This document shows positions 4,491 to 44,283 of a DNA stretch of 64,000 nucleotides, piece by piece. Both the position numbers and the translations under genes were made by a program. Positions within the stretch are counted from its first letter, which is position 1; each line of letters opens with the position of its first letter. The DNA lies in the IMG/VR virus record IMGVR_UViG_3300029267_004179, positions 32,001 through 96,000 of that record; one strand, 5' to 3'. Below the pieces are notes generated by a model that was not told where the DNA came from, ran no database searches, and worked only from the letters and a program-made list of their open reading frames with translations. Source of the stretch: a virus.

Positions 4491-4520
4491 AGTTTGTTTC
4501 ATTTAAGATTCTACACCTAT

Positions 4521-4583
4521 AAAATAAAAAACTAATACCTATATATAGGGTAAAAATTTTATAGGCCTTAAAAGGGGAATAAG
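4521..4583 (+). repeat. dispersed intergenic element, copy 1
   Basis: AAAAACTAATACCTATA-TATAGGGTAAAAATTTTATAGG-CCTTAAAA; core 4544-4565. Confidence 0.95.
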
Positions 4584-13800: not shown

Positions 13801-14546
13801 AGGAAGAAGGAGAAGAGATGGGTCAAATTATAGGCGACCAGTCTGATACCCTTAAAAAACTACTCGGTAGATCGGGAGTTATAAACAGAAGTCTTGAAAC
13901 GATAAACAATTCGATAAGTAATGTAGCATTGGCAATCAATAATCTTGAAGACCATTTGGCTTCAGCTATAGAAGGGATGGAAGGCGGCGGCGGTCTTGGC
14001 GGGTATACAGGTGGTTTATCCGAGTCTGACAGATCGATTTTGAACGAACTTGCTACTCGATACTTTGATCCTGGTACGGGAGCCGAAGCGTTTACTGAAA
14101 GCATAAGTGAATTGGCGGTTCTTTATCAGCAATTGATGGCGGGTGGTGCAGATGCTTGGAGTGCTGCTGCATCTACATTTGGTTTGACAACCGAAAGATA
14201 CCGGGCTGATTTTGAACTACTCAAAAGTATTCTTCATTTTCAGGGCGGCGGTATGGCTAAAGGCCCGGATGAAGGGTATCCAGCTATATTGCATGGCATT
14301 GAGGCAGTTATCCCTATGAATGGTGCAAATATTCCTGTCCAAATAGTTGGTGGTGGAAAGGATGCCACTTTGTTGGATGAGGTCAAAAAATCAAATCTTC
14401 TTCTTTCGGCATTGCTTAACAAGGATAGCAAGGTTGATGTTCATATAGGAAATGAGAAATTTAAAGGAACTATCCGGAAAGAAGCGAATCAGCTTATGGT
14501 TGAGGTCCATGACCGTGGCGCTTATGGCAAAATGGTTGTGCCTTAA
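7899..14546 (+). CDS. tail tape measure protein (TP901 family core)
   Basis: FEQTMA.V..VTGAT, LAMAGF, LPSTLNLA.A, GIQGS.AGT.L motifs; 2215 aa, helical. Confidence 0.95.
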   Translation: MFAGYKIEVDTKTANIATAKLRNNLKGVGGQAKISEKEMRRLESRMKKGLGAGKAAKDMESLARATKMTRLEVARFQAKVGNYSGALATLSGGAKKAYNSLFSLKTMFASMGAAMATGAIITAGKNFEQTMAIVRGVTGATIEEFDELSAAARRMGEQTEWSATQAGDSLRFLAMAGFTVQEAITALPSTLNLATAGNLELGRAADIASNAMTALGLSAEDLSRVNDVFVATATRSNSTVEMLAESFKYVAPTAKALGYEVEELNAYLGKLHDAGIQGSMAGTQLNQAMLRTHKVFKKLGIDGEGKSLLDALEAMKEAQWGVNEVMGVFAGRGGRAILTLMDMTDGINSLTEANKNSAGEAKRLADIMRDTVHGSFKRVASVIESVMLDIFEEYKGSLKELLQDTAEWIEQNKTGLVGFVTALGEGAKTATDSLAAIGGSLDAIRKSSGFIGDSFSDHPEILTFGMMGLFLFGVQGGAVVGTLAMVVNYLNDASKMAGMIAGGAVDFSTFMDSNNKDMKELIVAFERGGNAGVEFVEKQRRIKELQIYYADLRTELKKTTDMQDSWRGSFVSSFYTKGDDPYSKELEKTKTKIIEVKAELGLLQAQSENYIDVWQHKAQDISAPLRKQTTETLLASKAMKAYNDSIYAMRGKQEVVPADNSKSLAKMEKYIEEVKTLNMSAREADLYDQQKWYEERLTHFEKYGGDIEALNKANNKTISEINKKYRKDAINADKKAYDKRLKAMEDYKKGIQSYADDWADINKELAVGFAISPEANEERTDFMEVQNEWDSITVDIENAAKEAREIWRDASEDISEDLSDAFGSFIDGTYDSWDDLVDHMMSTFQGAATEIANKQIKMLFTDPGGEEIKMTEMEKYAAGGGAIASAFQAYQSAKQGQAGAAIAQGVGAALMAYAAASGSAYVMMAAAVVSALGGLFGSPSGGGGMRQWQVRYDPYRRMTDEELAIAKREAYERGEYYEPRYARGKESAEGGLWILPIIDREGKPVEGTYDWRRPVAEALPAPQTGFWEAWGEGFEPVGDSKQRAMIDEINETIGKVQSEIWDTVNEWLKNFSDAVQESFRARMETIVVKLFDVTRGETLFVTTEDYTYWMKEVSQHAQEKFFLAILNPLRFTIIDVFEELEEKFGKQIIGGFNVETILQDGEIVDTIRNFTTQAFGVSANSVMGRYLRFLEESMQKEEMTPEEVDKLMQVLAQFNAAYTKMMEVYQGVIDHTQSIISDRTEYEQALYDIQEYYQDAYDTLKELGASEELLLGIREQERQANEKIVNEFAKGRKEIESEMNQYIEAITNPLEGLALELDTVNTQFDAWISSLKELGASQAELEHAEVERHRAITAAIESYYGSLLTSLVSPFQELAKSIEELQAEISGASEVDVLSKKLNEMRKEMGIAGAEDLFDFGWLGENLVKKIETGISEPAKEAVAALFGEGNDPGGNIIRPWDRHPELGPTPGVISPSAEPEVAENQGKQAAEVLKEYITSWTLGLLEKGSMVTEEAMNEAIAMWYRNNRELAGIEAINEEMITDLISSLMGSLVEPYVEAARQEKFGQVYSEAVDFIKREIQRVFISETGAGEKTFAEADVEQIKKQIWTKMTQAIPDVDVIRNIFSSIWDRLWEEYTGGYAGVAGGVGIDKGFEGQIDSSVKALVEEGVSQEDIVEYLTVLRDYYKSFFKQLKDDWGKWDSVKTNAEEAINLISTALEPQRSVLQKIPQLMGESIEDIDDYINNLNEWVTEAKAVKTSFETFAKGVQEAKFNIKKTTYLAGKTIEEQVGAYDDYLSLAYSELQGAYYGDRPEEALELMSRMQTLLMERYNLENQLIEETYGNMKNIEAIVTSITDKIRQLRYSEYNLQLPVQKAEIATEDYATLLQAARSGDAADINKYIGFIDTYLRQSMDAYKSNEQYQEIWEQVNDDLESLNLTMQAYTSEDTIYLQKLNEAADYTNNWLEKIQEHAEEEGEEMGQIIGDQSDTLKKLLGRSGVINRSLETINNSISNVALAINNLEDHLASAIEGMEGGGGLGGYTGGLSESDRSILNELATRYFDPGTGAEAFTESISELAVLYQQLMAGGADAWSAAASTFGLTTERYRADFELLKSILHFQGGGMAKGPDEGYPAILHGIEAVIPMNGANIPVQIVGGGKDATLLDEVKKSNLLLSALLNKDSKVDVHIGNEKFKGTIRKEANQLMVEVHDRGAYGKMVVP

Positions 14547-14567
14547 TCTTAAAATTAACCGTGTTAA

Positions 14568-14645
14568 TTTAGCTTATATTAAACGATCTGATAAAAACTA
14601 ATATAAGGGTATAGGGTAAAAATTTTATAGGGGTTAAAAAGGAAA
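14568..14645 (+). repeat. dispersed intergenic element, copy 2
   Basis: ATTAAACGATCTGATAAAAACTAATATAAGGG-TATAGGGTAAAAATTTTATAGG-GGTTAAAAAGGAAAT; core 14610-14631. Confidence 0.95.
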
Positions 14646-15916
14646 TGCTTTTAATTGAAGTCACCATAAACGGAACAGTAAATTATCTTTCGATGGAAGG
14701 TATTGAATTGACGAGATGGTGGGATAACAAAGTGATTTCATTTACTGCTCCTAATTACACCATTAAGGATACTTATGGTGGTTATGTAGATGTTGAATTC
14801 GGAAACATAGAATTTTCACCCGATCTTTTTCTTTCTCCTAATTGGCCTCCTCCTGCTGAATGCCCTATAGTTGTGAAATATACAGATACCGACGAAGCAA
14901 GTGCAGAGGTTCTTTTTGATGGTACCTGCTATATCAGGAAAATAAACAGGGAATCAATAGTATATGACATCTTCGATGAAGCGTTTGATATAAATCTTTT
15001 GGATACTGCTGTTGATTACAATGGGGATACCGTACCGTTACCAAGAGCTTTTGGGACTGTTACTTTTGTCAATCCGGTAAGACTACCGGATGCCGGTGGT
15101 TTCCCGATATGGCATAAAGGGAATATTCAAGGAGTACTTGGAACTAATTATTTCTGTTATGATGACGGAATAGATGTTTCAGTTAATTTCACCGATCTTG
15201 GCACTACCCTACAACAAAACGTAGGGCTTGCCGGGGAACTTACATTATCAGGAGTTGGCCTTGAAACGACTCTTGACCAAGTTATGAGTTGGGGAGCTAT
15301 AACTAAACTTGGTCTTGCCTATGATAATTCCGTTGGCAGGGTAGTGAGTCCACCAATTAATTATTGGGCGGCAGGGCAGGATAAAATAATATCTTTTTTA
15401 TCAGATATATGCTTGTTTTTCACTCATCTTAATTATATCAGGAATAACACTCTTTATCTTGTAGATATGTTTCAAGATAATGGAACAAGAACTATTACTG
15501 AGTTTGAGTTCTTTCCTGCCGAGTATGATTATGAAGTCCCGATAAGGATAATAAAATCCGCATGGGAGAATCGCTTTTCTGTTTCTGAAACGATAGGGCA
15601 ATATGTTAAGCATGTTCCTGATAAAACAGAAAGGACAACTGCTTTTCCGTATGGCAATTTAATGGAAGTAACACCATTCGATGATATCAAGTCAAATATA
15701 GAAGCTGCACTTGACAATATATTACTTGTTCATCCAAAACCACGAGCAAGAGTTTCATTGCCTCTTTTGGGTAGTTTGCCTGTTCCCGGTGAAGCGATAA
15801 CTCTTGAAGATACTTCACTTGCTGAAGATACAGATGTAGTTATAAGGTGCAGAAAAATTACTTACGATTTTAATAATGATGAAGTTGTAGTAGAAGGTGA
15901 AGGGACACTGACATAA
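14645..15916 (+). CDS. tail tip/baseplate hub protein
   Basis: Directly follows the tape measure; PLPRAFG and YDDG motifs seen in tail hub proteins. Confidence 0.6.
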   Translation: MLLIEVTINGTVNYLSMEGIELTRWWDNKVISFTAPNYTIKDTYGGYVDVEFGNIEFSPDLFLSPNWPPPAECPIVVKYTDTDEASAEVLFDGTCYIRKINRESIVYDIFDEAFDINLLDTAVDYNGDTVPLPRAFGTVTFVNPVRLPDAGGFPIWHKGNIQGVLGTNYFCYDDGIDVSVNFTDLGTTLQQNVGLAGELTLSGVGLETTLDQVMSWGAITKLGLAYDNSVGRVVSPPINYWAAGQDKIISFLSDICLFFTHLNYIRNNTLYLVDMFQDNGTRTITEFEFFPAEYDYEVPIRIIKSAWENRFSVSETIGQYVKHVPDKTERTTAFPYGNLMEVTPFDDIKSNIEAALDNILLVHPKPRARVSLPLLGSLPVPGEAITLEDTSLAEDTDVVIRCRKITYDFNNDEVVVEGEGTLT

Positions 15917-22299: not shown

Positions 22300-23334
22300 A
22301 TGTCATTCTTATCGAATCTTATTTCAGGTATCACCGGCAAGAAGCTTGAAGAATCGGAACGACTTGTGGATGAAGCAAAATTAAGGATTCAATCGGCTTC
22401 TCAGGAATTACTTGAAGCAGCTTCAGAAGCAAAAGAACAAAGAGACCAGCTTGCTTTAAGTGAAAAAAAGTATAGGAATTTATTTCACAATTCACCGGTA
22501 GGTATGTTCAGGTTAAGTAACGATGGAACAAAATTCCTTGAAGTCAACAATAGGTCTGTTGAAATTCTTGGCTATGATAGTGTTGAAGACTTGATGAATG
22601 TTCATCCGATTACTATTTGTGCGTCCGCTGACGTTTTTCATCGCATCCAATCAATACTTGATAACAAAGGAAGGGTTATCAAATATATCTTTTGTGGTCG
22701 GAAAAAGAATGGAGAAATTGTCACATTGGAATCATCCATGAAGGTCTACCCACACGAAGATTACACTGAAGGGACTGTGATTGATGTCACTGAAAGGGTG
22801 AGAATAGCAAAGCTGAAGCAATATGCCTATGAACTTGCCAATCAAATGGTTGATCTTGCGTGGTATAAGGATAGTAATTTGAAGTTTTTGTTTATTAATG
22901 CTTCCGGTTTAAAAGTCCTTTTCGGCCCGGATATGAAGCTTTCTGATGTAGAAGGATTAAGCGATATAGATGTTGTCAGAAAACATTACAAGGGAAATTA
23001 TGATTCAAATCTTGTCGGAGAAGTCTGTCAAGCTACCGATAAGAAAACTATCGAAGCACGGAAACCATCCCGATTTATTGAAATTGCTAAAAATTTGGCA
23101 GGAGTAGAAGTCTGGCTTGATGTTTTTAAGGTGCCTTGTTTTGCTACTGATGGAAAATTTGTATCAATAGTTGGAAATGCAAGGCTTATACATGAGAATA
23201 TGCGGAGTGAATGTTCTTCTTTTTTAAAAGAGAAGATGGAAGAAGGCAAGGTTGATTTGGTTGCTGGGAAATTTTATCACCTAAAAGAATTTGAATATGC
23301 CGAACTAAGGGAAAGCATAATCGATAAATCTTGA
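22300..23334 (+). CDS. stand-alone tandem PAS-domain protein (alternative start 22282)
   Basis: SEKKYRNLF.NSPVGMF...DG..FLEVN...ILGY...DVTER (PAS 1); DLAWYKD....FLFIN...WLDV.KVP....DG....IVG.AR (PAS_4); no output domain. Confidence 0.9.
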   Translation: MSFLSNLISGITGKKLEESERLVDEAKLRIQSASQELLEAASEAKEQRDQLALSEKKYRNLFHNSPVGMFRLSNDGTKFLEVNNRSVEILGYDSVEDLMNVHPITICASADVFHRIQSILDNKGRVIKYIFCGRKKNGEIVTLESSMKVYPHEDYTEGTVIDVTERVRIAKLKQYAYELANQMVDLAWYKDSNLKFLFINASGLKVLFGPDMKLSDVEGLSDIDVVRKHYKGNYDSNLVGEVCQATDKKTIEARKPSRFIEIAKNLAGVEVWLDVFKVPCFATDGKFVSIVGNARLIHENMRSECSSFLKEKMEEGKVDLVAGKFYHLKEFEYAELRESIIDKS

Positions 23335-23347
23335 AAAGAATCATCAT

Positions 23348-23431
23348 CATTTAAGATTCTATCAGCATAAAATAAAAAACTAATATAAGGGTATAGGGTA
23401 AAAATTTTATAGGCCTTAAAAAGGAAATAAG
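23348..23431 (+). repeat. dispersed intergenic element, copy 3
   Basis: Core TATAGGGTAAAAATTTTATAGG at 23392-23413 with shared flanks. Confidence 0.95.
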
Positions 23432-31370: not shown

Positions 31371-31386
31371 AATCTGTTAAGACTTT

Positions 31387-31441
31387 CTTATTTCCCTTTT
31401 AAGGCCTATAAAATTTTTACCCTATACCCTACTATTAGTTT
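31387..31441 (-). repeat. dispersed intergenic element, copy 4 (reverse)
   Basis: Reverse complement of the 22-bp core at 31405-31426. Confidence 0.95.
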
Positions 31442-31631
31442 CAAAAGATCACATACCCTGTGTTAAATTGCAAATAGCTATGTTTGTATTTATTATAAGC
31501 CTTAAAGGGGCTTTATTTGTTAATTAAAATTATTAGCTAAAATCTTGTCTGTTGATTAGTATAGTTAATAGGGTTTAAGTTTAAAGATATTTTAAGTTAA
31601 CCAAAACATCCTTATGAATGCTTGTTTTCAT

Positions 31632-31762
31632 AAAAGAAAAAAAAGAAGAAAAAAAAGAAGAAAAAAAAGAAGAAAAAAGAAAGAAAGAAAGGTTTATAAA
31701 GAAAGAAAGAATAAAAGAAGAAAATAAAAGAAGAAAACAAAAGAAGAAAATAAAAGAAAAAA
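31632..31762 (+). repeat. purine-rich low-complexity tract (AAAGAAGAAAAA and TAAAAGAAGAAAA units)
   Basis: About 130 nt of nearly pure A/G between divergent operons. Confidence 0.85.
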
Positions 31763-35516: not shown

Positions 35517-36464
35517 ATGCTTGTTGATTCTGTTGGGCTTATTGAGCATTTAGGAATTGACTATCATCCATCTGGTAAGAATGTGGCTTCAAATGATATA
35601 AATATTTGTTGTCCGTTTTGTGGTGAAGATGGCTATCATTTAGGGGTAAACAAGGATAATGGGCAAATTAACTGCTGGGTGTGTGGATTTGACTACCAGG
35701 ACAGATATCCAAGCTTAATAACTCTTGTTATGACTTTAAATGACTGCTCTTTTTTGGATGCTAAGAGCATAGTTGATGAATTTAAGCTTGATGACTTCGG
35801 TGACTTAGATGATAATAAAAATAGGCTTGTTGAGAGGAAAAATATCTTAATGCCTAAAGAGTGTGAGGACTTTTTCAAGACTAAGCACAAGAGATGGGCA
35901 AGTAAGGCTCTTGACTATTTGCATAGTAGAGGGTTTGATGAAAGTACTGTCAGGAAGTATAAGCTTAAATTTTGTATTCATGGTAAGTACAAATACCGGA
36001 TAATGATCCCTATTACTTTTCTTGGCAAAGTAGTGAATTTTACAGGTAGGGATTTTACAAACAGGGGTGTTAACAGATATAAGCATTGTAAGAATGATTT
36101 TTCAGCTATGAGGCAAAAGAGCTTGCTTTACGGGCTGGATAATTTTATCGATTGTGGCAAATCTCACATCAGAATATTTGAGGGCCCAACAGATGTTTGG
36201 AGAATTGGAGATACAGCAGTTGGCTTGATGAGAAATAGGATATCAGATAGACAATTGTCTATCCTTTCTGTTTTGGGTCTTGAATCAGCATCTGTAATAC
36301 TTGATTTTGGATCATATAGCAAGGCAGTTGCCATAGCTGAAGAGTTGAGTGTTTTTGTCAGGAGGGTTAAGGCTGTTGAGCTTGTTGGCAAGAAGGATGT
36401 AGCCGACATGTCAGCAGATGAAGTTTTTAATTTAGAATCTACTTTTGATTGGATGGTGTTCTAA
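35517..36464 (+). CDS. DNA primase (zinc finger + TOPRIM)
   Basis: CPFC...H....NCW.CG, YL.SRG, RIMIP...F.GR, EGP.D, D.D. Confidence 0.88.
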   Translation: MLVDSVGLIEHLGIDYHPSGKNVASNDINICCPFCGEDGYHLGVNKDNGQINCWVCGFDYQDRYPSLITLVMTLNDCSFLDAKSIVDEFKLDDFGDLDDNKNRLVERKNILMPKECEDFFKTKHKRWASKALDYLHSRGFDESTVRKYKLKFCIHGKYKYRIMIPITFLGKVVNFTGRDFTNRGVNRYKHCKNDFSAMRQKSLLYGLDNFIDCGKSHIRIFEGPTDVWRIGDTAVGLMRNRISDRQLSILSVLGLESASVILDFGSYSKAVAIAEELSVFVRRVKAVELVGKKDVADMSADEVFNLESTFDWMVF

Positions 36465-36724
36465 TGGGTTTTAATTATAAATATTATAGAAGCAGATACA
36501 AGCCAAAAGTTGTCAGTGAACTTCCGAAAGACATGAGGTATATTACTGTGAAAGAGGCAGCTGACTATTACGGTGTTACAAGTCAAACTATTCGTCATTG
36601 GTATTTGTCCGGCAAATTAATATCGGTGATGTATAACCGGAAGATTTTTGTCAGGGTATCAGGATCAATTAATGATATGTTAGGATTTGTGTCTAAAAAG
36701 GATATCAGACCTGGCGTTATATAA
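36464..36724 (+). CDS. helix-turn-helix DNA-binding protein (excisionase/MerR-like)
   Basis: ITVKEAA.YYGVT.QTIR.W...GKL. Confidence 0.8.
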   Translation: MGFNYKYYRSRYKPKVVSELPKDMRYITVKEAADYYGVTSQTIRHWYLSGKLISVMYNRKIFVRVSGSINDMLGFVSKKDIRPGVI

Positions 36725-36740
36725 GAATTTTGCCGCTTTA

Positions 36741-36822
36741 TTTAGCTTGTATTAAACGATCTAATAAAAACTAATACCTATATATAGGGTAAAAATTTTA
36801 TAGGCCTTAAAACGGAAATAAG
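36741..36822 (+). repeat. dispersed intergenic element, copy 5
   Basis: Core at 36783-36804; left flank as in copies 2 and 7. Confidence 0.95.
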
Positions 36823-36944
36823 ACAGCTTTGCTGTTCAAACCGGACTTAAAGATGATAAATTGCTTAAAATAGGCTAAATTATGTTTTTTTTGATTATTT
36901 GTTAAAATTTATGTAAAAATATAAAAATTTTTTATTCAATGATT

Positions 36945-36970
36945 AGGCGCTGTTATTCAGCGCCTTTTTT
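36945..36970 (+). terminator. intrinsic terminator
   Basis: AGGCGCTG-TTATT-CAGCGCCT followed by a T-run. Confidence 0.85.
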
Positions 36971-37148
36971 ATTTTCAAAGATAATGAGAGAAAATATATA
37001 AAAAAAGTTTTCATAAAAGCATTATATCATTGTTATCACTTGATAAAAATTTTTACAGTTTTCCGATAATCAATCATAAGCTTGGATTTTAGATGATTAT
37101 CCGGTTTTACTTTTCCGCTGTATATTATAAAAAGGAACCTAAGTTTTA

Positions 37149-37160
37149 TGATCTTTTACA
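37149..37160 (+). promoter_or_regulatory. boxA-like antitermination sequence
   Basis: TGATCTTTTACA vs rrn boxA TGCTCTTTAACA (10/12), just downstream of TATATTATAA. Confidence 0.55.
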
Positions 37161-37630
37161 TCGTCGAGTACGTTGAGGGGCTGGCAAGAGGATTGGCCGG
37201 ATAAAATACCTTATAAAAAACACCCCAAGAATTCAAACTCACTTGATGCCATCCGGGAAAAGTAACCAAGCGGGCCATAACTTAACCTTAAATTTTAAGG
37301 TTAAGCCTTTCAGGGCTGCGGAGACGAAATATGGAAGTCTCTTCCTGATAAGCCAAAAATCAGCCAAGAAAACGGGGAAACCCGATAAGGGCTGGGCGCC
37401 AAGGTGAAAAATTCATGTTGACCTATATATCTGCAAACCAAAGATTGGATTTCATCTCCATTATAACCAGCACGAATCAAGTAATGCTGCAGGAATTATC
37501 CTTTGGGCGGCATACCGCATTGAATCAAGTAGATGTGCAGGAGCATATAGGTCAACAGCAATAAGGGATGATTTATCATCCCAACTAAGCTTTTGTCTTT
37601 ATATAAAGGACAGAAGTTTAGTTGGGTTTA
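37161..37630 (+). ncRNA. candidate large structured RNA / early-operon leader
   Basis: No ORF of 60 aa or more; GC-richer than its flanks; many stems, including the 13-bp 37416-37428/37545-37557 enclosing two GAATCAAGTA-loop hairpins; G-U pairs. Confidence 0.65.
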
Positions 37631-37673
37631 TAAGGCATTTTTATAAAACTTTAACTTTAATTAGGAGGGAATT

Positions 37674-38027
37674 ATGTCTGATAATAAAAATGATATTAGT
37701 ATAATAGATGCTATAGGTTCTTTAAGGCCTTTCACAGAAGGTGATTGGCAAGGGTACAGTGGAGCTGAAGGCGACAATCCATTAATTGCTGAAATTGGCA
37801 GTTTCATCTTTATTATCGATGAAGCTGGCATCCAGGTAGATTATGTCCATGATTTTGATGAAACTGATGAAGATGGAGAACCCATTCTTGGAAGTCCTTG
37901 GGATGAGAGGTTTTTGTCCTTGGGCACTCAGTGTGTTAGCATCGCTGTTTTCTTTGAGATTTTCCGACTTATAAATAGCGAAGGCATCACTATGAGTGAT
38001 GCCTTGGATAAGCTGAACTTTAAATAA
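37674..38027 (+). CDS. early hypothetical protein
   Basis: AGGAGG RBS; RPFT..DW.GYSGAE...PLIAE. Confidence 0.75.
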   Translation: MSDNKNDISIIDAIGSLRPFTEGDWQGYSGAEGDNPLIAEIGSFIFIIDEAGIQVDYVHDFDETDEDGEPILGSPWDERFLSLGTQCVSIAVFFEIFRLINSEGITMSDALDKLNFK

Positions 38028-38059
38028 TATGAATGATATAAGCAGAAAATGGAGGAGAT

Positions 38060-38278
38060 ATGAGGGAATTTGAGAGGCTGAGCCATATGATGACAGAGGA
38101 GTTTCATTTAATAGACTGCGGAACATTTTATGAGACAACTGATAACAGATTTGTTGGTTACCCGCAAGGGCCAAATCAAAATGATGGGTTGCTTGTGCTT
38201 GATCGTAAAATGGATAAGTATGTTGGTTTTTTCCAGGACGTGAAAGAAGCCAACTTTGCTGTAAATTTAATTGAATAG
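38060..38278 (+). CDS. early hypothetical protein
   Basis: GGAGG RBS. Confidence 0.65.
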   Translation: MREFERLSHMMTEEFHLIDCGTFYETTDNRFVGYPQGPNQNDGLLVLDRKMDKYVGFFQDVKEANFAVNLIE

Positions 38279-38286
38279 GAGGCAAG

Positions 38287-38682
38287 ATGAAATTAAAAAA
38301 GAAGACAAGCCCTAAAATCAGCAAGAAGGAATGGGCAAGGATGCTTGCCCTTGTTGACTCAGCAGCATCTTTAAAAGTTGAGGTTGACAGCCTGAAAAAT
38401 ACTTTGGAGGATATGAAAGGCACTCTGAAGGAATTTGCAGCTCGTGCCAAAGTAAAGAAAATTAAAAGCAAAAATTATACCGCTGCTTTTAAGGACGGAA
38501 AAAAGACAGAGATTGACCCTGAGCTGTTTTATGATGAGGTAGATGATATTGATGATTTTATTTCGTCAATATCGGTGAAGGTGACTGAGGCAAGGGAAGT
38601 ATTGTCAGCAAAAGCGATTGATAAAATTGCATTTGTGGAAGTTAAGCCATATAATTCTGTTTCTTTTAAATTTATCGATTGA
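38287..38682 (+). CDS. early hypothetical protein
   Basis: AGGAGG RBS; coiled-coil N-terminus. Confidence 0.7.
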   Translation: MKLKKKTSPKISKKEWARMLALVDSAASLKVEVDSLKNTLEDMKGTLKEFAARAKVKKIKSKNYTAAFKDGKKTEIDPELFYDEVDDIDDFISSISVKVTEAREVLSAKAIDKIAFVEVKPYNSVSFKFID

Positions 38683-38713
38683 TGTCTATTTTGAAAGTAT
38701 TCTGGTTAGATAG

Positions 38714-38774
38714 CACCGAAACAGCCGCAAGGCTGTCTATCATGGGTGGTTCCATGGTACTGATGAGGTAGCCA
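38714..38774 (+). ncRNA. type II hammerhead ribozyme 1
   Basis: ACC-GAAA-CAGCC(GCAA)GGCTG-TC-TATCATGG(GTGGTT)CCATGGTA-CTGATGA-GGT; loop TGGTT pairs with 3' AGCCA; predicted cut after C38737. Confidence 0.93.
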
Positions 38775-38864
38775 AATAAAATATAAAGTTTGACAAACTG
38801 AAAATAATGTTTAAAACAGCTTTCGATGGTATTGAACCGCACTATTAATAAAAAGGAGGATAAA

Positions 38865-39074
38865 ATGGTCTTCGCAACTTTTAATACGATCAATGGGAAA
38901 AGGTCTGGAAGGGTCATTCAAGCCCATTCCAAGTCCATTATTGTCCAACTGTGTTCTTTTAAAAGGAACAAGATTACCAGGATGCATCAGATCATCCCGG
39001 AAAAAGTAATCACTCGGCATCTGGAAAAACACAGAGTAAAAATATATGATGAGAAGGTGATCCCCATCAACTAA
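38865..39074 (+). CDS. early hypothetical protein (SH3-like)
   Basis: AGGAGG RBS; I.RH..KH.V motif; stop codon abuts ribozyme 2. Confidence 0.7.
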   Translation: MVFATFNTINGKRSGRVIQAHSKSIIVQLCSFKRNKITRMHQIIPEKVITRHLEKHRVKIYDEKVIPIN

Positions 39075-39076
39075 AA

Positions 39077-39137
39077 CACCGAAACCGGGCTTGTCCCGGT
39101 CGTGGTAGGGTTGTGCCTACCGCCTGATGATGTAGCT
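39077..39137 (+). ncRNA. type II hammerhead ribozyme 2 (G10.1 to U variant)
   Basis: ACC-GAAA-CCGGG(CTTGT)CCCGG-TC-GTGGTAGG(GTTGTG)CCTACCGC-CTGATGA-TGT; predicted cut after C39101. Confidence 0.85.
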
Positions 39138-39162
39138 GAATGAATATAAAAGGGAGGATATT

Positions 39163-39398
39163 ATGAAAAAACGAAGGCTATATGTGGTTAGAGGGTCCGA
39201 AGACGGCATCGTAGGTGTTTACACCAACATCAAGCTTGCTTGGGAAAAGCCATTAAGGGCTTGAATGGTCATACCGGAAGTTATGCGGAAGCCGTGGTAA
39301 TGCTTAAAAAATCACATTATTTCACAGTTGAGTAAAAAGTCCCTGAAATGGGAGTCAAAGCAATATACTATATCAGTCTTCATTATTTAAATGAATAA
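39163..39398 (+). pseudogene. disrupted early gene (frameshift plus internal stop)
   Basis: GGAGG RBS; MKKRRLYVVRGSEDGIVGVYTNIKLAWEK, shift near 39245-39250, AIKGLNG...TVE*(39333)KVPEMG...YLNE*. Confidence 0.6.
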
Positions 39399-39425
39399 GT
39401 TTAAAAAACTATAAAGGAGGTAAAA

Positions 39426-39656
39426 ATGGCATTCAGAATCCTAATTCATGATGATAAAATTGGTGGAGTCGAAGACGTTCTGGAGATGGATTTGGACGTG
39501 GCACTAACTCCCAAAGGACAACTCACCGCATGGCTTCATCGACGCATTGTCAATGAAATCAAAAAAGTGGCAGAAGTGGCCGAAATGAGTTCAAACCAAA
39601 AATGGTTTAAAAAGGCAAGAAGGACAATATTGATTGAACCGGCAAGCGGAAAATAA
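39426..39656 (+). CDS. early hypothetical protein
   Basis: AGGAGG RBS; stop codon abuts ribozyme 3. Confidence 0.7.
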   Translation: MAFRILIHDDKIGGVEDVLEMDLDVALTPKGQLTAWLHRRIVNEIKKVAEVAEMSSNQKWFKKARRTILIEPASGK

Positions 39657-39657
39657 A

Positions 39658-39718
39658 CACCGAAACGGCCGCAAGGCCGTCGTGGTAGGGTTGTGCCTAC
39701 CGCCTGATGAGGTAGCCA
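39658..39718 (+). ncRNA. type II hammerhead ribozyme 3
   Basis: ACC-GAAA-CGGCC(GCAA)GGCCG-TC-GTGGTAGG(GTTGTG)CCTACCGC-CTGATGA-GGTAGCC; predicted cut after C39681. Confidence 0.93.
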
Positions 39719-39751
39719 AATAAAATACAAACAATATAAAAGGAGGATATT

Positions 39752-41167
39752 ATGAAGAAGGCTGATGACATCACAAGTTATTTGAGAGCTGGATTCAGTG
39801 CTTTCTGGGTAACTACTCAAGAGCCAAGAAGGGCTGTTGAGGTGCTGACTGAGAAGATTGAGCAATTTGTCCGGAAGGATGGTGGCAAATACAGGATTGG
39901 CAATTGGAACTGTCTTGGTGGTGATCCTGTAAAGGCCTTGTCTATCAATGGTGATTTTAATGTAAAATTCTTGATGAACTATCATTGGTTCATCAAGAAA
40001 CCACCTGTTGTGCAGACAATTCAGGATAACATAGAAGTCTGGAAAAATCATGGCAATGCTATCATAGTTGTTTCTCCTGTGATGGATATCCCCATTGAGC
40101 TTGAAAAGGATTTTGTACCTTTGTCATTGGAGCTGCCTGATGAAAAGGCCATTAAAAAGTCTTTCCAATACATTTCTGAGAGTACAAACGGGGCTGTTAA
40201 AGTGCCAGATGGGACTGATTTTGATAAGCTTGTGTCTGCCTCAAAAGGGCTTACACAGCTGGAATTAGAAAACACATTGGCCTTGTCTGTTGTGAAGAAA
40301 AGAAATTTTGATAGTGAGGTCATTTCTGATCATAAAGCCAGCATCGTTGAAAAAAGTGGACTTTTGGAGATAGTTAAGCCAACTATTACATTTGATGATG
40401 TGTGTGGTTATGACCAGATTAAACAGTTTGTCCTTTCTACTATCCGCAAGCCTGAAGCAAAGGGCATCTTAATTCTTGGTCCACCTGGATGTGGTAAAAC
40501 GATGTTCATGAATGCTCTTGTCGGCACTACCGGGAAAATAGGACTTAACCTGAATTTTGGGAAGATGTTCTCAAAATATCAGGGTGAGACTGACCAGAAC
40601 ATCGAAGCAGCTATAAAGGTGATTGAGGCCATCGGTGACTGTATTGTGATGGTAGATGAGTTTGAGAAGCAATTTGCCGGTGCTGCTTCTACCGGTGAAA
40701 CAGATAGTGGTGTGACCAGAAGGGCAACTGGCCGATGGTTGAGGTTTATGCAAGAAAGGCCAAAAGGTGTTTATATCATCGGCACATGCAACTCATTTAG
40801 AGGCATGCCGCCTGAGTATCTGAGGCCTGGAAGATGGGACAGCAGCCCTTTCTTCATTGATCTTCCGAGTCAAGGCGAAAAAATGGAGATCATGGCATAT
40901 TATTTGGGGAAATACAGGCTGGCTGTCGATGGGAGAACACCAAGACTGCCGGCCATGGATAAATGGACTGGAGCTGAAATTGAAGCGTGCTGCCGTAATG
41001 CTTCAATGATGGAGTGCTCTGTGGCTGATGCATCAAAGTTCGTTTTGCCTCAGGCAAAAACTATGGAAGATGAAATTTCCGAGCTGAGGACATGGTCGAA
41101 AGGCAGGACAATTCCAGCAACCATTGTGATAAAGAAAAAGAAAAAGAAAAGGGTAATTGACACATAG
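39752..41167 (+). CDS. Ycf46-like AAA+ ATPase
   Basis: Degenerate N-terminal AAA (T.E..R, IP.EL....LP), GPPGCGKT, VDEFEK, PPEYLRPGRWD..FFIDLP, WTGAEIE. Confidence 0.88.
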   Translation: MKKADDITSYLRAGFSAFWVTTQEPRRAVEVLTEKIEQFVRKDGGKYRIGNWNCLGGDPVKALSINGDFNVKFLMNYHWFIKKPPVVQTIQDNIEVWKNHGNAIIVVSPVMDIPIELEKDFVPLSLELPDEKAIKKSFQYISESTNGAVKVPDGTDFDKLVSASKGLTQLELENTLALSVVKKRNFDSEVISDHKASIVEKSGLLEIVKPTITFDDVCGYDQIKQFVLSTIRKPEAKGILILGPPGCGKTMFMNALVGTTGKIGLNLNFGKMFSKYQGETDQNIEAAIKVIEAIGDCIVMVDEFEKQFAGAASTGETDSGVTRRATGRWLRFMQERPKGVYIIGTCNSFRGMPPEYLRPGRWDSSPFFIDLPSQGEKMEIMAYYLGKYRLAVDGRTPRLPAMDKWTGAEIEACCRNASMMECSVADASKFVLPQAKTMEDEISELRTWSKGRTIPATIVIKKKKKKRVIDT

Positions 41168-41169
41168 TT

Positions 41170-41256
41170 ACAGTTAGGTGACCAGGTTTTCCTGGTCACC
41201 TGTTAAGGTAGCAAGCTGAAATCTTTGTTCTTGCTACCTTAACAGGTGATAGCTGT
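41170..41256 (+). promoter_or_regulatory. intergenic overlapping double hairpin (possible RNase III processing site)
   Basis: 11-bp hairpin at 41176-41201 overlapping a perfect 20-bp stem 41196-41215/41230-41249. Confidence 0.6.
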
Positions 41257-41293
41257 TTACTATCAACACTTATTCATATAAAATGGAGGGATT

Positions 41294-41494
41294 ATGGCTA
41301 AAAAAGTGGAGATTATTCTTGGCAAAGACGGCTCTGTAAAGATTGAGGCCTTTGGGTTTAAAGGCTCATCTTGCGAAGAAGCTGTGGAATTTTTGAAAAA
41401 GACATTGGGTGATCCTGAAACGCACGATTTGAAATCCTCCTATTATGAGGATGATTGTTTAGTTAATGGGCTGCCCAGCGGTTATTGCGGTTAA
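41294..41494 (+). CDS. DUF2997-family protein
   Basis: I....DG.V.IEA.GF.G.SC......L...LG......K..YY. Confidence 0.85.
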   Translation: MAKKVEIILGKDGSVKIEAFGFKGSSCEEAVEFLKKTLGDPETHDLKSSYYEDDCLVNGLPSGYCG

Positions 41495-41521
41495 TGCTTG
41501 ACTATTAATTGGAGGGACAAT

Positions 41522-41914
41522 ATGAGCCATATTAGCACATACAAAGCAAAAATTAAGGACATCGATGCTTTTATTCAAACACTTTCTGATGCCGGATATG
41601 CATGGCGTCAAGGGGATTTGACAGTCAAGCAGTTTGGCCGTAACTGGATAAAGTGTCATACTGCTTTCAAACTGCCAGGCTGGCAGTATGAGATTGCAAT
41701 AAACAATGAAGGTGAGCTGCTCTATGATCACTTTGGCAGCAAGCCTTCAGTGGTTGTCAATGGCAAATCCGTTAGAACAATGGACATTTTAGGGAAGACA
41801 ATCCAAGATTATAATGAGCAATCTATTGTGTCGCATGCATGGATGGAATGTGATAATGTTACCACTGAAGATTTGGAAGGTGGTGACAAAAGGGTTGTTC
41901 TTGAATGGCTGTAA
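41522..41914 (+). CDS. DUF1257/Ycf35-like protein
   Basis: MSHIS.....IKD...F...L...G; L.YD.F; Q.Y; directly after the DUF2997 gene. Confidence 0.75.
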   Translation: MSHISTYKAKIKDIDAFIQTLSDAGYAWRQGDLTVKQFGRNWIKCHTAFKLPGWQYEIAINNEGELLYDHFGSKPSVVVNGKSVRTMDILGKTIQDYNEQSIVSHAWMECDNVTTEDLEGGDKRVVLEWL

Positions 41915-41961
41915 TGGATGTCTTATAGCTGTGAATGTTTCAGATCGGAATGGAGGGTAAA

Positions 41962-42879
41962 ATGAAGAGAATCAGAAGAACTCAGGTGATGGAGAAGTTT
42001 GATCTTTTTGAAAGAGGGGTGCTTATTACCTTGGACACGAGATGTTGGGGAGCATCAGCCAAGGTGGATGACCTGACGATGAAAGGCCTTTTGAAGGAAG
42101 ATAAGGCTATGTTAGCTGATGAGATAGTTGCAGTTCAATCTCTTGTGCCTGACAAGTCAAAGCTTGCTTACATATGGCATGTCCGTGACGAGGCAAGGCG
42201 ATTTGCCCAAACCAATTCGATGCCTTCAACTATTCGTGGTCACATGTTTATTCCGAAGGATATGATTGAGTATGTTGACCATGGGCTGGCTGACCGGGAA
42301 AGAAGATTCTGGATGGGTGTGGATGAATTTCTGTTGGAATATGAAGGGCTGAGACTGAAGAAGCAAATTGAAAGCCCAGACTTGTATGATCAGTCAAAAT
42401 ATCCTGATGCAAATAGGATGCGACAGCGGTTCAAGTTCAGATGGACATTCCGGATGTTTGATGTGCCAAGTTCTGAAACAGGGTTATTATCGCCGGAAAT
42501 GTACAAGGCTGAAGTCAAAAAATTCAAGCAGGATATGGTTGATGCCAGAGACAGTATCATTTCCATAATCTCAAAAGAGTTTTTGGAAAGGATTGATTCT
42601 TTGAGGAAGCAGTGCAGCGGTGATAAGATTAGCACAGCAACTGTTGACGGGCTGAATAATTTTCTTGAAAAGTTTGATAATGTTTGGGGCGGATTCTTTG
42701 CTCATAAGCAGCTCAAGAGCATGATCAAGGATGTTAAAGCATACATGGCCGGAACAGAAGCAGATATGCTCCGGTATGATGAATCATTCAGGTCAATGGT
42801 TGGGAAGAAAATGGCTGAAGTTGGGAAGGACTTCAAAGCTGCCGGTGGTGCCCGTATCGGCAGAAAGCTGGACATATGA
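41962..42879 (+). CDS. DUF3150-like protein
   Basis: L....W.A..K, G..FIP, F...V..F...Y, D...YP....R..F. Confidence 0.65.
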   Translation: MKRIRRTQVMEKFDLFERGVLITLDTRCWGASAKVDDLTMKGLLKEDKAMLADEIVAVQSLVPDKSKLAYIWHVRDEARRFAQTNSMPSTIRGHMFIPKDMIEYVDHGLADRERRFWMGVDEFLLEYEGLRLKKQIESPDLYDQSKYPDANRMRQRFKFRWTFRMFDVPSSETGLLSPEMYKAEVKKFKQDMVDARDSIISIISKEFLERIDSLRKQCSGDKISTATVDGLNNFLEKFDNVWGGFFAHKQLKSMIKDVKAYMAGTEADMLRYDESFRSMVGKKMAEVGKDFKAAGGARIGRKLDI

Positions 42880-44147
42880 GTGCGATGAAACCAGTTGTTC
42901 CTGGATTGGATAGGATGATCTATAAGATAGCCCAATTCTGGATCAAATTCATTCCGAACCGGTCCTGTTTAGAGTTTGAGGATTTGGTTCAGGAGTGCTA
43001 TCTGGAGCATGTTAAGGCACAGAAAAGGTTTGACGAGTCAAAAGGGGTTAAATATACCACCTATCTTTATAAGGCTTTGTGGTGGCGGTGTTCAGCTATA
43101 GCCAAAACAGAGCTGAAATATAAAAATAGGGAGTTTGACAACCCATTGCCTCAGAAACCTTCTGTGCCTGAGGATGATTATCTTGTTTATGAGGGCATTT
43201 GGGCATTATCACTTCTTAGCAAGTCCTTTGCCGACATGATAATTAACGGTATTCCTGACACGCTTTTTAAACATCTTCGTCAGCATGCTGAGGATATCAA
43301 GGAAAGGAATGGCTGGAAGAATGGGTTTAGGACTTTTAGACTAAATAAGACTATTGTTGAAAGATTTTTTGGAATATCTATCAGCAAACTGAGGCACTGT
43401 TACTATAATTATAATAGAGATGATTATGAAGTTAACTTTTTAACAATGGAGGGGTTGAAAATGGAAGAAAAAAGATTAAAGGGTTTTGCCAGCGCAGTTG
43501 GAATTTCATGGGATGATTCTGTGGACATGCAAGAACAGATTTTAGATGCCATAGATGATATGGGTGAGAAGGAGTGGAAGGAACTTCCTGAAAACATCCG
43601 TGCCTGGTCGAATAAGAAAAACAAAGAGGCTGCCGCCGCCGCAAAGGCAAGCAAGCCGACAAAAGCCAAGGACAAAGATGAGCTGAAAAAGGCCAAAGAC
43701 GGCGCCAAGGAAAAGGCTGAAAAGAAAAAGGCTGTTAAAAAGCAGTCAAAGGAATATCCTACCAGATTTAAAGAGGGCACAAATGGCCATCAAATCACTG
43801 CGTTTGTTGAGGAAGCTGGCAGTGATGGGATCAGCATCACTTCTCTTATCAAGAAATGTGAAAAGGCAAAGGTGAACAGCCCTAATGTTTCAGGAAGGGT
43901 GCGGCATGTGATGCGTATGTGCACAACGATTGAAGTTGATCCACATTGCGGTCTTCTGCGTAAAGATAATGATTTATTCTTTTGGGTTGGCCCGAAGTCT
44001 GAAACTGATGCCGAGAAGCCGGCAAAACCGGCAAAGAAAGAAAAGAAAGAAGAGAAAAAACCGGCAAAGAAAGAAAAGAAAGAAAAGAAAGAAGAGAAAA
44101 AACCGGCAAAGAAAGAAAAGAAAACGAAAAAATTCAAAAAGAAGTAA
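42876..44147 (+). CDS. sigma70 region-2-like protein in frame with a Lys-rich DNA-binding-like protein (internal start at 43461)
   Basis: EFEDLVQE.YL......RFDESKGVKYTTYLY; internal GGAGG+ATG at 43461; KPAKKEKKE tail. Confidence 0.7.
   Translation: MSAMKPVVPGLDRMIYKIAQFWIKFIPNRSCLEFEDLVQECYLEHVKAQKRFDESKGVKYTTYLYKALWWRCSAIAKTELKYKNREFDNPLPQKPSVPEDDYLVYEGIWALSLLSKSFADMIINGIPDTLFKHLRQHAEDIKERNGWKNGFRTFRLNKTIVERFFGISISKLRHCYYNYNRDDYEVNFLTMEGLKMEEKRLKGFASAVGISWDDSVDMQEQILDAIDDMGEKEWKELPENIRAWSNKKNKEAAAAAKASKPTKAKDKDELKKAKDGAKEKAEKKKAVKKQSKEYPTRFKEGTNGHQITAFVEEAGSDGISITSLIKKCEKAKVNSPNVSGRVRHVMRMCTTIEVDPHCGLLRKDNDLFFWVGPKSETDAEKPAKPAKKEKKEEKKPAKKEKKEKKEEKKPAKKEKKTKKFKKK
43400..43409 (+). promoter_or_regulatory. 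putative -10-only promoter TTACTATAAT
   Basis: The same decamer occurs at 53251-53260; both lie upstream of an RBS+ATG. Confidence 0.4.
44024..44123 (+). repeat. coding tandem repeat (KPAKKEKKEEK)
   Basis: AAACCGGCAAAGAAAGAAAAGAAA repeated three times with variable spacers. Confidence 0.85.
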
Positions 44148-44157
44148 CAACTATGTT

Positions 44158-44207
44158 AAGGCCCACCAAGGGGATGAGTTGAGACTCCCTTTGGTGGGCC
44201 TTTTTTT
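44158..44207 (+). terminator. intrinsic terminator
   Basis: AGGCCCACCAAGGG...CTTTGGTGGGCCT followed by a T-run. Confidence 0.88.
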
Positions 44208-44229: not shown

Positions 44230-44283
44230 TTTTAAGGCCTATAAAATTTTTACCCTATATATAGGTATTAGTTTTTTATTTTA
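44230..44283 (-). repeat. dispersed intergenic element, copy 6 (reverse)
   Basis: Reverse complement of the core at 44238-44259. Confidence 0.95.

What the first reader, a model, noticed from the sequence alone, without database searches (positions are those of the whole stretch)
37149..37630. About 480-nt structured RNA with boxA and twin GAAUCAAGUA loops leading the early operon
Seen: a boxA-like start, then stems 37162-37169/37241-37248, a hairpin at 37281-37305, GGAGAC/GTCTCT and CAGCC/GGCTG around a GAAA-tetraloop hairpin. A domain closed by a perfect 13-bp helix holds two hairpins with the identical loop GAATCAAGTA (37474, 37522). Both loops are complementary to ACTTGAT at 37241-37247, which allows a switch or an intermolecular contact. 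I could not match it to a family I know. Inference: a new phage ncRNA, perhaps an RNA antiterminator, a protein or anti-defence sponge, or a self-assembling RNA.
Basis: partly seen in the sequence, partly recalled or inferred. Interest (0 to 1): 0.82.

Follow-up and report, generated by a model that had tools for sequence, protein, structure and literature searches.

The report
Hairpin-rich leader before ribozyme operon
A gene-free stretch in an uncultured 104-kb phage carries several hairpins ahead of an operon that hammerhead ribozymes cut into pieces, but only its last long hairpin is clearly an RNA signal, and with no relatives found, nothing shows it is one large new structured RNA.

Summary
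Most of the listed sequence features are real. The 12/12 palindrome, the GGAGAC/GTCTCT and CAGCC/GGCTG stems, the GAAA-tetraloop hairpin, the perfect 13-bp inverted repeat, the two identical GAATCAAGTA decamers and the ACTTGAT complement are all present. No Rfam family matches.

The picture of one ornate 480-nt RNA does not hold up:
- The fold z-score of -6.2 comes mainly from the 3' hairpin (37564-37641). That hairpin scores z -9.0 on the + strand and -5.0 on the - strand, with six G-U pairs.
- The two "domains" fold equally well on either strand.
- The interior of the 13-bp "domain" folds no better than shuffled sequence (z -0.3).
- The second twin hairpin has a pairing probability near 0.01.
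- The boxA match is at chance level (57 equally good matches in the genome).
- The 5'/3' closing helix is not significant.

Homologues were sought by BLAST, nhmmer and two covariance models over 683 kb of the nearest relatives. None was found, so covariation could not be tested.

Best reading (0.45): an untranslated, hairpin-studded leader of the hammerhead-punctuated operon, ending in an RNase III-type hairpin just before the first ribosome binding site. A discrete new ncRNA, a DNA-level element, a 49-codon ORF and decayed remnants all remain possible.

The parts
36738..36822 (+). Copy of a promoter-like intergenic repeat. Nine copies lie in the genome, and in five a Shine-Dalgarno and start codon follow directly. 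This copy has no gene behind it and points into the stretch.
   Evidence: (D2, D3)
36945..36965 (+). Intrinsic terminator (8-bp stem with 6 GC pairs, then a T-run). It closes the replication operon and lies between the promoter-like repeat and the stretch.
36970..37148 (.). AT-rich spacer (GC about 0.22) with no excess structure (z about +1). The operon's own promoter is presumed here, but no convincing sigma-70 match was found.
37149..37161 (+). boxA-like string TGATCTTTTACAT, a chance-level match.
   Evidence: consensus from PMC5725501
37181..37200 (+). 5-bp hairpin CUGGC/GCCGG with a 10-nt loop (p 0.92).
37281..37305 (.). Perfect 12/12 palindrome, one of nine perfect hairpin repeats in the genome. 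Four of the nine lie in this operon.
37320..37342 (+). Hairpin GGAGAC/GUCUCU with an 11-nt loop (p 0.94).
37325..37357 (+). Hammerhead-like skeleton CGAAAT..GTC..CTGATAAGCCAAA. The core motifs and the 3' tail are in the type II order, but stems I, II and III are missing and G8 is A. It is a probable dead relic or a coincidence.
   Evidence: alignment not convincing
37361..37394 (+). Stem CAGCC/GGCUG enclosing the CGGG-GAAA-CCCG tetraloop hairpin (p 1.0).
37416..37557 (.). Perfect 13-bp inverted repeat (18 nt at 89%) around a 116-nt interior that folds no better than shuffles.
   Evidence: (I5)
37474..37542 (+). 21-nt direct repeat (81% identity, 48 nt apart) holding the two identical GAATCAAGTA decamers. 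The possible 5-bp stems are CAGCA/UGCUG and CGCAU/AUGUG.
   Evidence: (D1)
37415..37564 (+). 49-codon ORF spanning exactly the 13-bp repeat. AAGGTG lies 7 nt upstream, and the 48-nt repeat spacing keeps the reading frame. Its coding status is doubtful.
37564..37641 (+). Long irregular hairpin (21-bp core 37580-37600/37606-37626, arms of 33 nt at 79%, six G-U pairs). It is strand-specific and a candidate RNase III-type processing or stability element.
   Evidence: (I1)
37661..38027 (+). Shine-Dalgarno AGGAGGG and the first gene of the operon (117 aa, no family match).
38714..39721 (+). Three type II hammerhead ribozymes between the small genes (38714-38777, 39077-39141, 39658-39721).
44160..44207 (+). 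Intrinsic terminator that ends the operon. An inverted copy of the promoter-like repeat follows at 44230-44283.

Best explanation
The stretch is the untranslated 5' leader of the + strand operon 37674-44147. That operon holds small genes separated by three type II hammerheads, then an AAA ATPase and a sigma-like gene. The leader is not one ornate fold. It is a string of independent hairpins that ends in a long, roughly 21-33-bp double-stranded hairpin about 20 nt before the first Shine-Dalgarno. The proposed mechanism is inferred. Transcription starts in the AT-rich spacer, or reads through from the promoter-like repeat at 36738-36822. The hairpins give the 5' end stability. The terminal hairpin is a host RNase III-type site (or a stability or translation gate) that trims the leader from the first cistron. 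This would be the protein-enzyme counterpart of the ribozyme cuts further down. What is shown: the stretch is non-coding, the 3' hairpin is + strand specific, perfect hairpins are enriched across the operon, and a second hairpin block of the same design sits before the next strong ribosome binding site. What is inferred: transcription, cleavage and any function.
For: - The stretch is ORF-free and all neighbouring genes are co-oriented.
- An upstream terminator lies at 36945 and the operon terminator at 44160-44207, so 36970-44207 reads as one unit.
- The 3' hairpin has z=-9.0 on + and -5.0 on -, energy -36.4 against -20.6 kcal/mol, and six G-U pairs that would be C-A on the other strand.
- A second hairpin block of the same layout lies at 41176-41260, directly before the next GGAGGG ribosome binding site.
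- Four of the genome's nine perfect hairpin repeats (arms of 10 nt or more) lie between 37281 and 41201. One of them sits inside the 117-aa ORF, which argues for RNA-level hairpins rather than operators.
- Composition changes from the G-rich coding pattern (GC skew +0.2 to +0.4) to skew near 0 with an A excess.
- Without the 3' hairpin the + strand still folds slightly better than the - strand (z -2.9 against -1.8).
- Processing of long phage transcripts at multiple hammerheads is documented (PMC3088659).
Against: - There is no transcription data.
- No convincing promoter was found in 36970-37148.
- There is no homologue and so no covariation.
- In the nearest relative with the same operon type (G003), the orthologous leader is unrelated in sequence and is not notably structured (z -1.5).
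- Domains A and B show no strand preference, so they could be DNA-level repeats.
- RNase III cleavage is assumed from duplex length alone, and the host is unknown.
Confidence: 0.45

Rival explanations
1. A discrete, lineage-restricted ncRNA of about 0.5 kb. It would be released from the head of the operon transcript and act in trans, for example as a decoy for a protein that binds the two identical loops, or through loop-receptor contacts between molecules.
For: - The identical decamers are unique in the genome and are mostly unpaired in the ensemble (about 0.6).
- The stems beside them differ in a compensating way (sequence).
- The stretch ranks 2nd of 199 windows for GC-adjusted folding energy.
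- The 3' hairpin could mark a processing site that releases it.
- Phage genomes are compact, so about 500 nt of idle sequence is unusual (general knowledge).
Against: - The global fold is not supported: the interior of domain B has z -0.3, there is no strand preference, and the closing helix is at chance level.
- Twin hairpin 2 has p about 0.01.
- No homologue was found in IMG/VR, JGI metagenomes, INPHARED or the relatives' loci, by sequence or by covariance model.
- There is no match to ROOL, GOLLD, pRNA or any other Rfam family.
Confidence: 0.15
2. A DNA-level element: operators for a phage regulator (for example the HTH protein encoded at 36449-36724), or part of a replication origin next to the helicase and primase genes. 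The perfect palindrome, the 13-bp inverted repeat and four ATCAAGT sites would be protein-binding sites.
For: - The palindrome is perfect with a 1-nt centre, which is typical of dimer-binding sites rather than of RNA hairpins.
- Domains A and B fold equally well on both strands.
- Four of the genome's 27 ATCAAGT sites lie within 37038-37530.
- The 13-bp repeat shares ACCTATAT with the palindromic core of the promoter-like repeat (D7, 76).
- The AT-rich 36620-37139 window ranks first in the genome for GC-adjusted folding, and the replication genes lie directly upstream.
Against: - The 3' hairpin is clearly an RNA-strand signal.
- Similar perfect hairpins occur inside coding sequence of the same operon.
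- No iteron array is present.
- The motif clustering was noticed after the fact, and two of the four sites come from one duplication.
Confidence: 0.15
3. Decayed remnants of former operon content (small genes and a hammerhead) that now serve only as a spacer.
For: - The skeleton CGAAAT..GTC..CTGATAAGCCAAA is the only non-ribozyme match in the genome to the pattern of core motifs plus tail. My chance estimate is about 0.003 genome-wide.
- There is no conservation in relatives.
- Neighbouring small ORFs also have weak codon scores.
Against: - The alignment to the real hammerheads is poor.
- No frame-shifted protein remnants were detected.
- High-probability GC hairpins and the identical decamers argue for maintenance.
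Confidence: 0.12
4. The 13-bp repeat frames a real 49-codon gene (37415-37564). The 'twin loops' would then be an in-frame peptide repeat (xNQVxxQE).
For: - AAGGTG lies 7 nt before the ATG.
- The repeat spacing is 48 nt, or 16 codons.
- The ORF spans the repeat exactly.
- Its codon score of 0.006 lies above the 95th percentile of out-of-frame ORFs.
Against: - The codon score lies below the 1st percentile of true coding chunks (0.018), and GC skew is 0.0 against +0.2 to +0.35 for genes.
- There is no PHROG hit.
- The exact protein is absent from the 15-billion-protein collection, although the neighbouring 117-aa protein from the same contigs is present. Gene callers therefore did not call it with this sequence.
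- The start codon is buried in the 13-bp helix.
Confidence: 0.08

Closest known systems
Leader of the phage lambda N gene (nutL boxA/boxB followed by an RNase III-sensitive hairpin before the N ribosome binding site) and the RNase III hairpins of T7 mRNAs (from my knowledge of the literature, not retrieved here)
   Same: A long untranslated leader at the head of a phage operon, with a long irregular hairpin immediately upstream of the first Shine-Dalgarno. A second such hairpin lies between later cistrons.
   Different: There is no significant boxA, no boxB-like partner and no N-like gene. No terminators are predicted to be read through in the first 2.4 kb. There is no sequence similarity, and cleavage is untested.
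Hammerhead-punctuated phage and prophage transcripts (Perreault et al. 2011, PMC3088659)
   Same: Several hammerheads flank single genes or short blocks in one phage transcript. The stretch studied here is the 5' end of such a transcript.
   Different: That work describes the ribozymes, not a structured leader. The only hammerhead-like string in the leader lacks all three stems and has A at G8.
Large ornate phage-associated RNAs ROOL and GOLLD (PMC12286853; Rfam models)
   Same: Several hundred nucleotides, phage-borne, no ORF.
   Different: No covariance-model match even at E<=10. No well-defined global fold and no family of homologues. The stretch lies in an mRNA leader rather than beside tRNAs.
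rrn leader-trailer helix with boxA (PMC10250234, PMC5725501)
   Same: The MFE model pairs the 5' flank with the 3' flank around the whole stretch, and a boxA-like string sits at the 5' end.
   Different: Both features are at chance level here.

Membership tests
Any Rfam 15 family (4227 models, including ROOL, GOLLD, pRNA, 6S, riboswitches and self-cleaving ribozymes) | Covariance-model score at or above the gathering threshold | tested here: not met
   There is no hit in 37149-37630 at gathering score. At E<=10 only spurious miRNA-model hits fall on the long hairpin.
nut/rrn-type antitermination site | boxA matching the consensus (GYTCTTTAANA, PMC5725501) better than chance | tested here: not met
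   GATCTTTTACA misses 2 specified positions. 57 sites in the genome match the 13-nt rrn boxA with 3 or fewer mismatches.
nut/rrn-type antitermination site | Terminators downstream that need to be read through | tested here: not met
   No + strand intrinsic terminator is predicted in 36966-40000. Rho-dependent sites are not testable.
Hammerhead ribozyme (type II) | Three stems around the CUGAUGA / GAAA / GUC core, with G8 present | tested here: not met
   At 37325-37357 the core strings are in the right order, but there are no stem I or III hairpins, stem II is 1 bp and G8 is A (sequence). The Rfam model gives no hit.
RNase III processing hairpin (T7 and lambda type) | About 20 bp or more of nearly continuous dsRNA in the transcript strand | tested here: met
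   The core is 21 bp (37580-37600/37606-37626) and is extendable to 33-nt arms. It has z -9.0 and is + strand specific.
RNase III processing hairpin (T7 and lambda type) | Cleavage by RNase III | not testable with these tools
   This needs an in vitro cleavage assay or end mapping in rnc+/rnc- hosts.
CsrA/RsmA-sponge RNA | Many GGA motifs, mostly in hairpin loops | tested here: not met
   11 GGA are seen against 9.6 expected from the window frequency.
Conserved structured ncRNA (generic) | Homologues with compensatory base changes | tested here: inconclusive
   No homologue was found, so covariation could not be measured.

The most novel reading that the evidence does not exclude
A lineage-specific phage RNA of about 0.5 kb, released from the head of a ribozyme-processed operon. 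Its two sequence-identical 10-nt loops would act as twin binding sites (a decoy for a host or phage RNA-binding protein) or as loop-receptor contacts that join molecules. This would be a new kind of phage regulatory or anti-defence RNA with no relative in Rfam.
Probability: 0.1. Interest if true: 0.7.

Novelty: new member of a known kind. Interest (0 to 1): 0.3.

Why it matters
If the best reading holds, this phage combines two ways of cutting one long transcript: host RNase III-type hairpins and self-cleaving hammerheads. That makes it a useful case for studying how phages set the stoichiometry and stability of small early proteins. On its own the leader is ordinary. It would become important only if closer relatives, or RNA data, showed a discrete conserved RNA.

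Tried and rejected
HOMOLOGUE SEARCHES THAT FOUND NOTHING
- Twin-loop pattern in IMG/VR: 66 hits, all coding or tandem ESS-type repeats.
- Stricter twin-loop pattern in JGI metagenomes: 0 hits.
- blastn against INPHARED phages: none.
- The search for related loci with the primase, the 117-aa protein, the SNF2 helicase and the AAA ATPase gave only 20-40% identical relatives without the RNA.
- 80 metagenome loci around primase relatives: no nhmmer or blastn match.
- The hammerhead-tail pattern found the distant relatives G001/G003 and G002. Their leaders are unrelated, and G001 equals G003 apart from 1 mismatch.
- Promoter-repeat 17-mer in IMG/VR: 17 chance hits, with no protein kinship.
- Single-sequence covariance models R1 (37411-37562) and R2 (37229-37414) over 683 kb matched only themselves.
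- Earlier scan notes hold no look-alike in other genomes.

IDEAS REJECTED
- CsrA sponge.
- GAAA tetraloop with an 11-nt receptor: the CCUAAG and UAUGG flanks cannot pair (sequence).
- tRNA or tmRNA.
- Retron: no structured interior. The reverse transcriptase was not searched for.

The four contigs holding the identical primase and the Logan/ENA contigs of the 39-46% relatives could therefore not be read.
- A 300-nt two-strand genome scan timed out. It was replaced by smaller scans.

Full report
SETTING
The window is bases 32001-96000 of a 104,019-bp IMG/VR virus record that CheckV rates as complete. Upstream of the finding lie + strand replication genes: a DnaB-like helicase, an SNF2 helicase, a primase and a small HTH protein that ends at 36724. 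Downstream the layout is as follows.
- A 117-aa gene starts at 37674, behind the ribosome binding site AGGAGGG.
- More small genes follow, separated by three type II hammerheads at 38714-38777, 39077-39141 and 39658-39721.
- Then come an AAA ATPase and a sigma-like gene.
- A strong terminator lies at 44160-44207.
The 949 bases 36725-37673 hold no ORF of 60 aa or more. Within them lie four features:
- a copy of a promoter-like repeat at 36738-36822;
- an intrinsic terminator at 36945-36965;
- an AT-rich spacer with GC about 0.22;
- the GC-richer stretch 37149-37640. Its GC skew falls from the coding level of +0.2 to +0.4 to about 0, and A is in excess.

THE OBSERVATION
Most of the listed features are present:
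- the perfect 12/12 palindrome at 37281-37305;
- GGAGAC/GUCUCU;
- CAGCC/GGCUG around a GAAA-tetraloop hairpin;
- the perfect 13-bp repeat 37416-28/37545-57;
- two GAATCAAGTA decamers, the only two in the genome;
- the complementary ACTTGAT at 37241.
The 531-nt fold has z=-6.2 on + and -4.2 on -. Among 199 non-overlapping 520-nt windows of the genome, this one ranks second for GC-adjusted energy. No Rfam family matches, even at E<=10.

WHAT THE SIGNAL IS MADE OF
I folded the parts separately against dinucleotide shuffles.

| Part | z on + strand | z on - strand |
|---|---|---|
| 5' end 37140-37228 | +1.2 | +1.3 |
| Domain A 37229-37414 | -2.8 | -3.0 |
| Domain A without the palindrome | -1.9 | -1.1 |
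| Domain B 37411-37562 | -3.6 | -3.7 |
| Domain B interior 37429-37544 | -0.3 | -0.6 |
| 3' hairpin 37560-37645 | -9.0 | -5.0 |
| Whole stretch without the 3' hairpin (37149-37560) | -2.9 | -1.8 |

The 3' hairpin folds at -36.4 kcal/mol on + against -20.6 on -, and it has six G-U pairs. The large z-score therefore comes mainly from that one hairpin, plus a few perfect inverted repeats. Only the 3' hairpin shows that the + strand RNA is what matters.

In the ensemble the specific claims fare as follows:
- Twin hairpin 1 has p about 0.3 and twin hairpin 2 about 0.01. Forcing both costs 7.4 kcal/mol.
- The decamers themselves are mostly unpaired.
- The MFE closes the whole stretch with 5'/3' helices at p about 0.99. 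Yet 11% of shuffled 3' segments, and 27% of natural AT-rich 41-mers from the window, pair with the 5' segment at least as well. That duplex test scores one continuous interaction only, so it may understate the two-helix arrangement. The same 3' bases can also extend the local hairpin instead.
- The boxA-like string has 3 mismatches to the rrn boxA, and 57 sites in the genome match equally well or better. It also misses the published consensus GYTCTTTAANA at two positions (PMC5725501).

HOMOLOGUES
None could be found. Every route tried is listed under Tried and rejected; the main results are these.
- blastn against phage records, two twin-loop pattern scans, and protein-anchored searches with four flanking proteins gave only 20-40% identical relatives.
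- The hammerhead 3' tail pattern found the most useful relative. G003 is a complete 95-kb phage that shares the AAA ATPase (45%), the DNA polymerase (42%) and other genes. It carries 14 type II hammerheads in the equivalent operon.
- G003's orthologous leader is about 1.65 kb of gene-free DNA. It shares no similarity with the stretch studied here, and its proximal 540 nt fold with z=-1.5.
- Eighty metagenome loci around primase relatives gave nothing by nhmmer or blastn.
- Two single-sequence covariance models found only themselves in 683 kb.
- The primase and the 117-aa protein occur on four contigs, and nothing else in the collection is at least 90% identical to them.

CONTEXT THAT FAVOURS AN RNA-LEVEL LEADER
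- Nine perfect hairpin repeats with arms of 10 nt or more exist in the genome. Four of them lie between 37281 and 41201, and one sits inside the 117-aa ORF.
- A second block of overlapping hairpins at 41176-41260 sits directly before the next strong ribosome binding site.
- Together with the ribozymes, this marks the operon as a heavily processed transcript.
- The long hairpin just before the first Shine-Dalgarno has the length of an RNase III substrate. In layout it resembles the lambda N leader and the T7 R sites. That comparison rests on my own knowledge and was not tested.

RIVALS
- DNA-level element. The palindrome has a 1-nt centre, domains A and B are strand-symmetric, and four of the genome's 27 ATCAAGT sites cluster in 37038-37530. 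The 13-bp repeat shares ACCTATAT with the palindromic core of the promoter-like repeat, and replication genes are adjacent.
- A 49-codon ORF (37415-37564). It has an AAGGTG 7 nt upstream and spans the repeat exactly, and the twin decamers are 16 codons apart. Its codon score of 0.006 lies between out-of-frame ORFs (mean -0.14, 95th percentile -0.02) and true coding chunks (mean 0.27, 1st percentile 0.018). Its GC skew is 0. It has no PHROG hit, and the exact protein is not in the 15-billion-protein collection.
- Decayed remnants. The string CGAAAT..GTC..CTGATAAGCCAAA at 37325-37357 is the only non-ribozyme match in the genome to the pattern of hammerhead core plus tail. It lacks all stems and has A at G8, and the alignment to the real copies is poor.
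- A discrete new ncRNA. The evidence does not exclude this, but nothing beyond the identical decamers supports it.

VERDICT
This is a real non-coding, hairpin-rich region. It is most likely the leader of the ribozyme-punctuated operon, with an RNase III-type hairpin at its end (0.45). The claim of a single new 480-nt structured RNA with a boxA start and a loop switch is not supported by what could be tested, and it is not refuted by the tests that count. Novelty is low on present evidence. Interest is 0.3.

Noticed in passing
window 4499-4583, 14539-14649, 23321-23431, 36712-36822, 56124-56234 (+); 31386-31426, 44230-44283 (-); two more copies outside the window at about -13040 and 71944 (-): There are nine copies of a promoter-like intergenic repeat with the invariant core GGTAAAAATTTTATAGG. 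In five copies a Shine-Dalgarno and a start codon follow directly (tail completion protein, endolysin-like peptidase, exonuclease and others). The copies at 36788 (+) and 44254 (-) are 100% identical over 47 nt. They face each other across the whole ribozyme/AAA/sigma operon, and neither has a gene behind it. This could mean convergent or antisense transcription, or recombination sites.
   Followed up: partly
G003 (IMGVR_UViG_3300009788_000096), L083:2050-14263, - strand: A distant relative (95 kb) carries 14 type II hammerheads in about 12 kb, one between almost every small gene of the equivalent operon.
   Followed up: partly
L083:14580-16233 (- strand) compared with window 36800-36880: G003 has a gene-free region of about 1.65 kb ahead of its ribozyme operon, with many TTTTAGCC/GGCTAAAA repeats. 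It shares the short strings GGCCTTAAAA and AAAATAGGCTAAA with the window's promoter-proximal region.
   Followed up: no
window 37281-37305, 37981-38005, 39968-39999, 41176-41201: Four of the genome's nine perfect hairpin repeats (arms of 10 nt or more, loops of 8 nt or less) fall in this 4-kb operon segment, two of them inside coding sequence.
   Followed up: partly
window 37325-37357: A hammerhead-like skeleton has the core strings and the GCCAAA tail in type II order, but no stems and A at G8. It may be a dead relic.
   Followed up: partly
window 31630-31760: A polypurine tract of about 130 nt, (A)nGAAG repeats, lies in the divergent region between the leftward genes and the replication operon.
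   Followed up: no
window 54568-54759: A perfect 96-nt tandem duplication (32 codons) lies inside an ORF.
   Followed up: no
window 38826-39074 and 39426-39656: The two small ORFs between the hammerheads have weak codon scores (0.06 and 0.09, against about 0.27 for genes) and no family hits. They may be foreign genes or non-coding.
   Followed up: no
L036, L038, L061, L070 (unrelated IMG/VR contigs): Long 12-nt tandem arrays of the type GGAATCAAGTAG occur in several 50-85 kb viral contigs. They were met only because they contain the loop decamer.
   Followed up: no
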